Shown: piece by piece, positions 46,701 through 49,700 of the stretch
Layout of the letters: each line of letters starts with the position of its first letter
Numbering within the stretch: the first letter of the stretch is position 1
Source of the DNA: Escherichia coli
GTDB taxonomy: Bacteria; Pseudomonadota; Gammaproteobacteria; Enterobacterales; Enterobacteriaceae
Direction: 5' to 3' (one strand)
DNA: 64,000 bases
Assembly (NCBI RefSeq): GCF_030013205.1
Contig: NZ_CP122648.1
Made by a program: the position numbers

Positions 46701-49700
46701 AAGCTGCTCGATAAGCTGCCGGATGTGGTTTAAGGAGGAACAATGTCATACCCACTTTTTGACAAAGACGAGCACTGGCATAAGCCAGAGCAGGCGTTTC
46801 TCACCGATGACCACCGGGCCATTCTGCGCTTCGCCGTAGAGGCGCTAATGTCCGGTAAAGGAGCGGTGCTGGTGACGCTGGTGGAGATACGCGGCGGCGC
46901 GGCGCGCCCGCTCGGAGCACAGATGGTAGTGCGCGAAGATGGTCGTTACTGCGGTTTTGTCTCTGGCGGCTGCGTGGAGGCCGCTGCCGCTTTTGAAGCG
47001 CTGGAGGTGATGGGCTCAGGCTGCGATCGCGAAATTCGCTATGGCGAAGGTTCGCCGTGGTTTGACATCGTTCTGCCCTGCGGCGGTGGGATCACGCTGA
47101 CGCTCCATAAACTACGCTCGGCACAGCCTCTGCTCGCCGTGCTGAACCGCCTGGAACAGAGAAAACCGTCGGGTCTGCGCTACGATCCGCAAGCTCAATC
47201 GCTGGTGTGCCTGCCCACGCAAACCCGGACGGGCTGGAATCTCAATGGCTTTGAGGTGGGGTTCAGGCCATGCGTCAGGCTGATGATTTACGGACGTTCT
47301 CTTGAGGCGCAGGCAACCGCGAGTCTTGCAGCAGCCACAGGATATGACAGCCATATCTTCGATCTTTTTCCGGCCTCAGCCAGCGCTCAGATCGATACCG
47401 ATACGGCGGTCATTTTGCTGTGCCATGATCTCAACCGGGAGCTGCCAGTGTTGCAGGCCGCGCGAGAAGCAAAACCCTTTTATCTCGGCGCATTGGGCAG
47501 CTATCGAACCCACACTTTACGTCTGCAAAAGCTCCACGAGCTGGGATGGTCCAGGGAGGAGACAGAGCAAATCCGGGCACCTGTCGGGATATTCCCCAAA
47601 GCCCGGGATGCGCATACTCTGGCCCTTTCCGTACTGGCAGAAGTCGCCGCTGTACGTCTCCGTCAGGAGGATTCATGCCTGCCCCCATCGTCCTGATCCT
47701 CGCGGCGGGGCGTGGGGAGCGCTTCCTCACCTCCGGGGGAAATACCCATAAATTAAGAGAAAAATCTGCAGTAGCCGTTTAAGAAAATCACCTAAATCGT
47801 TTAAAAGAGCGCCCAACCCATAGTGGGCGCTTATCGCCTTGTGTAACTTATTCAGCAACGCGCGCCTCGCCGGACTAAAGCGCACCGGCCTTCTGGCGTG
47901 CGGTAACAAAGGTCAGTACGCCAGCGCAAAGGAGCAGCACGCTACTCATAGCAAACGTGCTCTGCCAGCCAAGGCGGTCAAACACAATGCCTCCTGCCGT
48001 TGATCCAAGGGCGATGGCGAGCTGAATCACCGCGACCATGAGCCCGCCTCCAGCTTCGGCGTTGTCAGGCAACGTACGCGCAATCCATGTCCACCATCCG
48101 GTTGGCGCGGCGGTGGCCAGCATGCCCCAGAGTCCTAACAGCAGCGAGACCGTCCAGACGTGATGCCCGGTAAGCATCAGACCGATGGCAATGACGGCCA
48201 TCAGTCCGGGTATGGCCATCAGCGTGGGGTAGAATTTTCTGTTGAGAAATGCCGAAACAACCAGCGTGCCAATAAAACCGGCCACGCCGATAATCAGCAA
48301 AATCGACGACAAGCCTAAGGAATTAACCCGTGTCACCGACTCCAGAAACGGGCGCACATAGGTGAATAGTGCAAACTGCCCCATGAAAAACAGGCCACAA
48401 GCTATCATGCCGACCACAACCATGCGGCGGCTAAATAAGCGGAATACCGCGCCACATGAAGTGTGGCTTTTATTCGCATCCATGCTTGGCAGGCTGATGC
48501 ACTGCCAGATAAAGGCGACAACCGCGATGGGCACCAGGCACAAGAAAGCGCCTCGCCATCCGACCGTAGCCCCCAGATAGCTTCCCAGCGGTGCGGCCAC
48601 GACCGTCGCCAGCGCATTACCGGCGTTGAAAATTGCCAGCGCACGCGTGACCTGATGCTGCGGCACCAGACGAATCGCCGTTGCCGCTGACATCGACCAG
48701 AATCCGCCAATAGCCACACCAATCATCGCACGACCGACCATATACATCAGATAACTGGAAGCCAGCGCAATAATAAGCCCCGATACGGCCATCAGAACCG
48801 TCATCCCCAGCAGCAGGAACTTACGATTCATCTTTCCAGCTAGCGTTGAAAGCGTCAGGCTGGTCAGAACCGCCAGCGCGCCGGAGATAGCAATCCCCTG
48901 CCCTGCCAGCCCCTCCGTCACGCCTAAATCGCGGGTAATCGGCGTGAGCAGGCTGACGGGCATAAATTCAGAAGCAATCAGCACAAACACGCACAGGGTC
49001 ATGGCAAAAATACCGCCCCAGTATGCGCGCTGATGATGAGGTGATAGTGTTTGGCTTAGTGTCGACATAGTGAAATTTCACAAAGATCAGGATAAAAGCC
49101 ACCAGCCTATGGCCGGTGGCTTTGCATCAATTCAGGAGAGGTTTTATTTCAGTTTGGTCTGGAAAAATTGTTCGAACTTCGCGAAAGGTATTTTTCCGGC
49201 CACGTTATCGTACAGGTCCACGTGATTTGCCCCTGGTACCACCACCAGCTCTTTGTCTTTACTGCCAACCGCCTTGTAAGCATCTTCAGCAAAATAGCGT
49301 GAATGCGCTTTCTCACCGGTCACAATCAGCGTCGGGATGGTGATTTCACTGGCGTAGCTCAACAGCGGCATATTCATAAATGACAGCGGCATCGTTGCCG
49401 TCCACGCCCCGGTAGAGTTAACGGAACGTTCGTGGAAGCCGCGCGGCATGCGATAGTAGTCAAAGAACTCTTTCAGTACCGGATGAGGATTTGCCGGCAG
49501 CGTTTCTGGCAGAATACGATCGCCCGCACTGACCTTGCCGTTGCTGTCGACATTAATATCATGACCACCATGAGCGAACGTTCCGCTCTGCGCATCCTTC
49601 CAGCGCTGTTCATTCAGATATTGCAGAACAGCACGACGGTCGGCGGTAGAATAACGGTCTTTGCCATCCCCCACACCATGGCCCATCGCCCGGCTCATGT

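What the first reader, a model, noticed from the sequence alone, without database searches (positions are those of the whole stretch)
47675..47782. Truncated MobA/MocA-like gene translationally coupled to paoD
A well-formed start (AGGAGG, ATG overlapping the paoD 3' end) opens a frame encoding the N-terminal LAAGRGERF nucleotide-binding motif of molybdenum-cofactor nucleotidyltransferases, but it stops after 35 codons. PaoABC needs a cytidylylated molybdenum cofactor, so a dedicated transferase gene here makes functional sense and appears to have been cut off. The breakpoint coincides with the start of the MFS/hydrolase/LysR block.
Basis: partly seen in the sequence, partly recalled or inferred. 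Interest (0 to 1): 0.45.

Follow-up and report, generated by a model that had tools for sequence, protein, structure and literature searches.

The report
Remnant of lost fifth pao gene
Just after paoD, this E. coli keeps only the first 27 codons of a MobA/MocA-like molybdenum-cofactor nucleotidyltransferase gene that is the intact fifth gene of the pao operon in most related enterobacteria; a deletion removed the rest, so it is an ordinary dead gene stub.

Summary
The ORF at 47675-47782 starts 4 nt after AGGAGG, overlaps paoD by 22 nt and encodes MPAPIVLILAAGRGERFLTSGGNTHKL+REKSAVAV*.

In 24 of 28 PaoD-encoding loci from other genera, a full-length 183-221 aa MobA-like gene (Pfam PF12804) sits in this position. 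The window matches only its first 27-28 residues (E about 1e-10). No 3' part lies elsewhere in the 64 kb.

After base 47755 the sequence continues with the last five codons (EKNLQ*) and the downstream hairpin of an alpha/beta-hydrolase gene. On a related contig (L033) that gene lies between the full-length transferase gene and the same MFS and hydrolase genes. So the stub comes from a deletion of about 2-7 kb, and the MFS/hydrolase block did not insert here.

All pao-bearing complete E. coli genomes have the stub and none has the full gene. K-12's yagP pseudogene comes from a second deletion of about 6.2 kb at a CATAA microhomology. It fuses the stub in frame to the C-terminal part of a LysR regulator.

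The tail of the ORF differs between strains (26, 35, 49 or at least 75 codons), so the ORF is decaying. E. coli's unlinked mocA probably covers the lost function.

The result is ordinary and of modest interest.

The parts
46743..47696 (+). paoD, the molybdenum cofactor insertion chaperone; last intact gene of the pao operon (paoA starts at 42896)
   Evidence: ORF and translation; PGAP annotation of the identical record NZ_CP062203.1.
47665..47670 (+). AGGAGG Shine-Dalgarno sequence of the lost fifth gene, lying inside the paoD coding sequence, 4 nt before the ATG
   Evidence: Sequence. The same layout is seen upstream of the full-length genes in L002, L033 and L035.
47675..47782 (+). The 35-codon ORF of the finding: a gene stub followed by an out-of-context tail
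   Evidence: The tail length varies between strains.
47675..47755 (+). The truly homologous part: codons 1-27 of the pao-linked MobA-like NTP-transferase gene (MPAPIVLILAAGRGERFLTSGGNTHKL)
   Evidence: tblastn; profile search E 3.7e-10; DNA homology to L002, L033 and L035 ends exactly at 47755.
47747..47751 (+). CATAA microhomology used by the second deletion, the one that produced K-12 yagP
   Evidence: The K-12 junction reads ..ACCCATAAGTGTATCGG. The full-length LysR gene in O157 (L037) reads ..AATCATAAGTGTATCGG.
47755..47756 (.). Deletion junction, identical in all seven form-a E. coli sequences examined
   Evidence: Alignment; blastn end points.
47757..47774 (+). Last five codons plus stop (EKNLQ*) of a deleted alpha/beta-hydrolase gene, in a different frame from the stub
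   Evidence: Window 47755-47853 is 82.8% identical to the 3' end and downstream region of the alpha/beta-hydrolase gene in L031. Homologous hydrolase tails occur in L002 and L033.
47807..47832 (.). Hairpin with a 9-bp GC-rich stem, lying between the convergent hydrolase tail and the MFS gene; a probable terminator inherited with the hydrolase tail
   Evidence: Fold of -16.6 kcal/mol, z -2.7. The hairpin is conserved in L031 downstream of the hydrolase gene. The simple terminator scan did not call it.
47875..49002 (-). MFS transporter gene, an ancestral neighbour
   Evidence: PGAP annotation. Window 47887-50169 is 82.9% identical to L033 12881-15148, where the gene follows the alpha/beta-hydrolase gene.
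49144..50202 (-). Second alpha/beta-hydrolase gene, unrelated to the deleted one; an ancestral neighbour
50467..51351 (+). LysR-family regulator gene; not the one that is fused in K-12 yagP
   Evidence: It is only 28% identical to the LysR part of YagP.
47516..47729 (+). Short recombination patch of L033-type sequence inside an otherwise E. coli-type paoD and stub
   Evidence: Informative-site table.

Best explanation
The ORF at 47675-47782 is a non-functional stub. It holds the first 27 codons of a MobA/MocA-like molybdenum-cofactor nucleotidyltransferase gene that was the fifth gene of the pao operon (paoABCD plus this gene). That gene overlapped paoD by 22 nt and had its ribosome-binding site inside paoD.

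In the E. coli lineage, one illegitimate deletion removed codons 28-184 and the genes that followed. The deletion was about 7.1 kb measured against the L033 arrangement, or about 2.0 kb against L002. It ended five codons before the stop of an alpha/beta-hydrolase gene. The stub now runs out of frame through that tail to a chance TAA stop. The hydrolase's hairpin now lies shortly after paoD.

In most E. coli, including K-12, a second deletion of about 6.2 kb between two CATAA pentamers fused the stub in frame to the C-terminal half of a LysR regulator. That fusion is the yagP pseudogene.

The lost activity is presumably supplied by the unlinked mocA (ygfJ), which is reported to deliver the cytosine dinucleotide cofactor to PaoD.

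Shown here: the homology, the junctions, the synteny and the population distribution. Inferred: the order of events, the enzymatic activity of the lost gene and its compensation by mocA.
For: A full-length 183-221 aa gene follows or overlaps paoD in 24 of 28 loci from other genera. This includes five-gene operons with the same 22-nt overlap.

The family matches PF12804 at E 9e-26. Its best NCBIfam match is MocA, TIGR03310.

Homology to L002, L033 and L035 stops exactly at 47755. Only profile positions 1-28 are found anywhere in the window.

Bases 47755-47853 match the tail and downstream region of an alpha/beta-hydrolase gene. L033 has the order full-length gene, 7-kb block ending in that hydrolase, MFS, hydrolase. 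Both flanks of L033 align to the window, at 94.3% and 82.9% identity.

Among 5426 complete E. coli genomes, paoC is present in 3605. The window's arrangement is in 912 and the K-12 arrangement in 2683. No record covers more than 32% of the L002 query, so none has a full-length gene.

The K-12 junction and the O157 full-length LysR gene share CATAA.

The junction is identical across strains, but the ORF tail is 26, 35, 49 or at least 75 codons long.

mocA is present in 5169 of 5426 genomes. PaoC binds the cytosine dinucleotide cofactor, and PaoD receives it from MocA (PMC2997495, PMC3909100).
Against: No Escherichia chromosome with the intact five-gene operon was found. The ancestral state is inferred from other genera and from L033. 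L033 is a mobile-element contig on which paoD is itself truncated at its 5' end.

The size of the deletion therefore depends on which relative is taken as the model.

The left ends of the two deletions lie within 4 nt of each other. The CATAA microhomology makes this plausible, but it remains a coincidence.

The full-length family scores below the MocA equivalog cut-off and is only 21% identical to E. coli MocA, so its substrate is unproven.

Whether the stub is still translated was not tested.
Confidence: 0.9

Rival explanations
1. The short ORF is a maintained functional element. It could be a small protein, or a translated leader or trailer whose translation, coupled to paoD, tunes paoD expression or termination at the hairpin that follows.
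For: A strong AGGAGG and an ATG are retained in all E. coli sequences examined. The ORF ends about 25 nt before a stable hairpin.
Against: The ribosome-binding site and the first 7 codons lie inside paoD, so their retention needs no separate explanation. The part after the junction differs in length and frame between strains: 26, 35, 49 or at least 75 codons. In about 2683 genomes it is replaced by a LysR fragment. In K-12 the conserved Arg of the GRGER motif is Cys.
Confidence: 0.05
2. The gene was split by insertion of the MFS/hydrolase/LysR block, so the 3' part should lie beyond the block.
For: The region between paoD and thrW is variable and holds island-type genes.
Against: No 3' part exists anywhere in the 64-kb window. 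The MFS and hydrolase genes are syntenic neighbours in L033, which has the intact gene. The junction partner is the tail of a hydrolase gene, not an element end.
Confidence: 0.03
3. It is a chance ORF with a glycine-rich motif.
For: Pfam gives no hit for the 35-aa peptide.
Against: The peptide is 26/27 identical to the N-terminus of full-length proteins encoded at the same position. The profile E-value is 3.7e-10. DNA identity to orthologous loci is 88-94% up to the junction.
Confidence: 0.01

Closest known systems
MocA (YgfJ), the CTP:molybdopterin cytidylyltransferase of E. coli (TIGR03310)
   Same: The full-length pao-linked proteins have the same fold family (PF12804) and a similar size of about 185-190 aa. 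They carry an N-terminal AAG-x-x-x-R nucleotide-binding motif (MocA has ITAAGLSSRMG). TIGR03310 is their best NCBIfam match. MocA serves the PaoABC/PaoD system.
   Different: Identity to K-12 MocA is only 21% over the C-terminal part. The TIGR03310 score is 84.7 bits against a cut-off of 186. The gene is in a different genomic context, being linked to paoD. In this window only 15% of the gene remains.
xdhC-mocA type gene pairs, for example B. subtilis pucA-pucB and the xdhC-mocA pair on Arthrobacter pAO1
   Same: A gene for an XdhC-family chaperone is immediately followed by a gene for a MocA-like transferase (PMC2997495). Relatives of E. coli show this at paoD, and Pantoea megaplasmids show it too.
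   Different: In E. coli the transferase partner has been deleted. Published descriptions call paoD the last gene of the operon.
yagP (b0282) pseudogene of E. coli K-12
   Same: It begins with the same stub, at the same start codon and ribosome-binding site: residues 1-26 are MPAPVVLILAAGRGECFLASGGNTHK.
   Different: In K-12 the stub is fused in frame to the C-terminal 110 residues of a LysR regulator by a second deletion. RefSeq annotates only the LysR part. The window shows the earlier state, before that second deletion.
MobA, the molybdenum cofactor guanylyltransferase
   Same: Same Pfam family. The N-terminal match is weak.
   Different: Scores are far below the MobA equivalog cut-offs: about 20 bits against 152-164.

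Membership tests
Pfam PF12804 (MobA-like NTP transferase domain) | A match to the profile above the gathering score of 27 bits | tested here: not met
   The 35-aa peptide and the 78-aa extended frame give no PF12804 hit even at E <= 10; the fragment is too short. The full-length orthologues score 91.3 and 88.8 bits. The stub is therefore a fragment of a family member and is not a member protein itself.
   26/27 identity to P0001; profile E 3.7e-10 over positions 1-28; tblastn E as low as 8e-11.
   Same layout in the window, L002, L033, L035 and L045-L048.
   Only codons 1-27 are present. No other part is found in the window.
MocA / YgfJ equivalog (TIGR03310, molybdenum cofactor cytidylyltransferase) | A score above the curated cut-off of 186.45 bits | tested here: not met
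   The full-length orthologues score 84.7 and 80.9 bits. BLASTP identity to K-12 MocA is 21%. They are a related but distinct subfamily.
MocA / YgfJ equivalog (TIGR03310, molybdenum cofactor cytidylyltransferase) | CTP-dependent formation of the molybdopterin cytosine dinucleotide cofactor | not testable with these tools
   This needs an enzyme assay or complementation of a mocA mutant with a full-length orthologue.
Pseudogene / gene remnant | Truncated relative to orthologues, with strain-to-strain decay beyond the junction | tested here: met
   27 of 184 codons remain. ORF length is 26, 35, 49 or at least 75 codons in different strains. O157 has a 1-nt deletion, EC1 a 1-nt insertion, and two strains have lost the stop codon.
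Translationally coupled gene pair | The downstream start overlaps the upstream stop and the ribosome-binding site lies in the upstream gene | tested here: met
   The sequence layout is present. Actual coupling of translation was not measured and cannot be measured with these tools.

The most novel reading that the evidence does not exclude
The 184-aa paoD-overlapping proteins form a distinct, uncharacterised molybdenum-cofactor nucleotidyltransferase (a 'PaoE') dedicated to PaoABC, and the ancestral enterobacterial operon is paoABCDE. On this reading E. coli, the model organism for this enzyme, is the exception. It deleted the dedicated transferase, so PaoD now takes its cofactor from the generalist MocA. 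The reported PaoD-MocA interaction would then be a secondary arrangement.
Probability: 0.55. Interest if true: 0.4.

Novelty: new member of a known kind. Interest (0 to 1): 0.25.

Why it matters
The result corrects a small point of annotation and history. The E. coli pao operon is described as four genes ending in paoD, yet it carries the start of a fifth gene that is intact in most related genera. It also explains the odd N-terminus of the K-12 pseudogene yagP. For work on the molybdenum cofactor, it points to an untested paoD-linked transferase family and to an apparent case where the unlinked mocA gene covers a lost, operon-specific one. It adds a cleanly resolved example of two successive microhomology-type deletions at the edge of the variable region next to thrW. 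None of this changes how such systems are understood.

Tried and rejected
Pfam on the 35-aa peptide and on the 78-aa extended frame gave no relevant hit.

I searched for the missing 3' part elsewhere in the window. Weak tblastn hits recurred at about 52760-53000 on the + strand (E 1-3). The profile search gives E 5 there, and the site is antisense to the AbiEi gene, so I rejected it as chance.

I first assumed K-12's form was a simple deletion within the window's arrangement. That is wrong for this strain: the LysR part of yagP is only 28% identical to the window's LysR. The correct parent arrangement has a second LysR gene, as in O157:H7.

The simple terminator scan did not call the hairpin at 47807-47832.

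Literature searches for yagP, paoE and paoABCD with pseudogene found no description of the remnant. The MocA paper PMC2755913 is not held.

The plasmid search found only distant Pantoea megaplasmid homologues at 36-39% identity.

The only match to a solved structure is weak: 2WE9, a MocA/MobA-related protein, at E 2.6e-4.

Full report
**What is there**

The window is E. coli chromosome and is 100% identical to swine enterotoxigenic strains such as K_EC180. paoABCD occupies 42896-47696 on the + strand.

Inside the last codons of paoD lies AGGAGG (47665-47670), followed after 4 nt by ATG at 47675. The paoD stop is TGA at 47694-47696, so the new frame overlaps paoD by 22 nt. The frame reads MPAPIVLILAAGRGERFLTSGGNTHKLREKSAVAV and stops at TAA 47780-47782. 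NCBI's PGAP annotation pipeline annotates nothing between paoD and the MFS transporter gene on the opposite strand, at 47875-49002.

**Is it a gene fragment?**

A scan of one genome per species with PaoD returned 29 loci. One of them (L030) is a spurious partial match.

- In 24 of the remaining 28, an ORF of 183-221 aa starts within or just after the end of paoD. These come from Leclercia, Enterobacter, Silvania, Siccibacter, Cedecea, Kosakonia, Citrobacter sedlakii, Pseudocitrobacter, Pseudescherichia, Dryocola, Asaia and others.
- The N-terminus of that ORF resembles ..VVLILAAGRGERFLASGG.THKL...
- The four exceptions (L008, L012, L015, L018) are titled Erwinia sp. 198, Pantoea endophytica, a Pantoea plasmid and Enterobacter ludwigii.

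The full-length proteins match Pfam PF12804, the MobA-like NTP transferase domain, at E 9e-26. Their best NCBIfam match is MocA/YgfJ (TIGR03310), but at 84.7 bits against a cut-off of 186. They are only 21% identical to K-12 MocA.

A protein search found 492 relatives at E <= 1e-10. The closest are 184-aa proteins whose first 27 residues differ from the window's by a single residue. Contigs encoding those proteins show a five-gene operon, paoABCD plus this gene, with the same 22-nt overlap.

Against the window, ten full-length proteins match only at 47675-47755/8, covering residues 1-28 at E from 8e-11 to 3e-5. A profile built from 21 of them matches only positions 1-28, at E 3.7e-10, and every other hit in the six-frame translation has E > 1. 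So the window holds 27 of about 184 codons, and the rest is nowhere in these 64 kb.

**The junction**

DNA homology to the closest full-length loci ends exactly at 47755 (..CATAAATTA). Those loci are L002 (91%), L035 (91%) and L033 (94%).

From 47755 to 47853 the window is 82.8% identical to the 3' end and downstream region of an alpha/beta-hydrolase gene found elsewhere in another E. coli genome, L031. Bases 47757-47774 read GAG AAA AAT CTG CAG TAG, which is EKNLQ*. These are the hydrolase's last five codons, in a different frame from the stub. A 9-bp GC-rich hairpin follows at 47807-47832 (-16.6 kcal/mol). The simple terminator scan does not call this hairpin.

On contig L033/L034 the gene order on the + strand is as follows. 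This is a mobile-element contig labelled Salmonella enterica.

1. paoD, truncated at its 5' end
2. the full-length transferase gene
3. a hydrolase gene
4. response-regulator and histidine-kinase genes
5. a cupin gene
6. a carboxymuconolactone-decarboxylase-family gene
7. a flavodoxin gene
8. the alpha/beta-hydrolase gene whose tail survives in the window
9. the MFS gene, on the opposite strand
10. a further hydrolase gene, on the opposite strand

Window 46900-47755 aligns to L033 4819-5674 at 94.3%, and window 47887-50169 aligns to L033 12881-15148 at 82.9%. The hydrolase tail in L033 reads ..KDKDLQ*.

The window therefore looks like L033 minus about 7.1 kb (L033 5675-12777). Measured against the shorter arrangement in L002 (transferase, flavodoxin fragment, hydrolase), the gap is about 2.0 kb.

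The MFS/hydrolase/LysR block is an old neighbour and was not inserted here.

**Population**

- paoC is present in 3605 of 5426 complete E. coli genomes.
- The window's arrangement ('form a', stub followed by the MFS gene) is in 912 genomes.
- The K-12 arrangement ('form b') is in 2683 genomes.
- With the L002 gene as query, no E. coli record covers more than 32% of it, and matches at the pao locus stop at codon 27. No complete E. coli genome has the full gene.

**How K-12's yagP arose**

In K-12 the stub runs in frame into the C-terminal 110 residues of a LysR regulator, giving the 136-aa yagP ORF. The intact version of that LysR gene lies about 6 kb downstream in O157:H7. There the order is stub, MFS, hydrolase, LysR, partial ykgR, a hypothetical gene, a short-chain dehydrogenase gene, then this second LysR.

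The stub reads CCCATAAATTA and the LysR gene reads AATCATAAGTGT. The K-12 junction reads CCCATAAGTGT. Form b is thus a second deletion of about 6.2 kb from form a at a 5-nt CATAA microhomology. This also explains why the left ends of the two deletions lie 4 nt apart.

**Is the ORF maintained?**

The junction is identical in all seven form-a sequences compared, which fits a single event. The ORF downstream of the junction differs:

| Strain | ORF after the start codon |
|---|---|
| window, P31_YH1 | 35 codons |
| O157:H7 | 26 codons (1-nt deletion) |
| EC1 | 49 codons (1-nt insertion) |
| 19AR0646, NRZ14408 | at least 75 codons (stop lost) |

In K-12 the conserved Arg of the GRGER motif is Cys. 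The ribosome-binding site and the first seven codons lie within paoD, so their retention needs no separate explanation.

**Function and consequence (inference)**

PaoC binds the molybdopterin cytosine dinucleotide cofactor, and PaoD is reported to receive it from MocA (PMC2997495, PMC3909100). Chaperone-transferase gene pairs of the xdhC-mocA type are known in other bacteria.

mocA is present in 5169 of 5426 E. coli genomes. The simplest reading is that the dedicated paoD-linked transferase became dispensable and was deleted. Its enzymatic specificity is not shown.

**Side observation**

The window's bases 47516-47729 carry L033-type sequence at every informative site, while the flanks on both sides are E. 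coli-type. This is a short recombination tract across the paoD end and the stub, and it did not restore the gene.

**Novelty**

I found no description of the remnant in the searchable literature, and paoD is called the last gene of the operon. The finding is a gene stub from a known family in a known type of gene pairing.

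Noticed in passing
window 47516-47729: A patch of about 200 bp across the paoD 3' end and the first 55 nt or so of the stub carries the L033-type allele. It includes a 3-nt indel at 47664 that makes PaoD 317 aa instead of 318. The sequence on both sides is E. coli-type. Identity to K-12 drops from about 98-99% to 93% in this stretch. Strain P31_YH1 shares the patch.
   Followed up: partly
L032 4112-4522 (E. coli K-12 yagP): The 136-aa yagP ORF is an in-frame fusion of the MobA-like stub (residues 1-26) with the C-terminal 110 residues of a LysR regulator. 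RefSeq annotates only the LysR part. The intact LysR gene exists in O157:H7 (L037 8440-9339).
   Followed up: yes
window 51563-51631 and 32255-32356: A partial copy of the small membrane protein gene ykgR, lacking its N-terminus, lies downstream of the LysR gene. The intact ykgR is 19 kb upstream. The same partial copy is present in O157:H7 and in strain 19AR0646.
   Followed up: no
window 51785-60992: A decayed island sits next to tRNA-Thr(CGT) thrW (60917-60992, - strand). It holds the AbiEii/AbiEi toxin-antitoxin pair (51785-53474, - strand), a type I restriction-modification system hsdRMS (53758-59739), an ash-family gene and an integrase fragment (60698-60901). K-12 has the CP4-6 prophage at this site, and other strains have P4-like satellites or a retron St85.
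   Followed up: partly
window 19353-23607, 28090-29318, 34780-35397: fdeC is annotated as frameshifted. An IS3-family transposase gene abuts a LysR gene. ecpA, the major subunit of the E. coli common pilus, has an internal stop in this strain.
   Followed up: no
L033/L034 1-6148: A contig labelled Salmonella enterica carries a 5'-truncated paoD, the full-length transferase gene and the 7-kb block next to TraI-like relaxase, UvrD-like helicase, UmuD and integrase-like genes. This chromosomal segment has apparently been captured by a mobile element.
   Followed up: partly
L031 1274-4099 (E. coli AB_24_S34): A second chromosomal site near yddB, in a few E. coli genomes, carries a block of histidine-kinase fragment, cupin gene, carboxymuconolactone-decarboxylase-family gene and alpha/beta-hydrolase gene. 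The block is homologous to the segment deleted next to paoD. Its hydrolase is 94% identical in protein sequence to the one in L002.
   Followed up: partly
L045-L048, downstream of position 10555: In relatives with the intact five-gene operon, the DNA immediately after the fifth gene differs in each lineage (decarboxylase-family and flavodoxin genes, a SIR2-like gene, integrases, a UvrD-like helicase). The 3' flank of the pao operon is a variable region well beyond E. coli.
   Followed up: no
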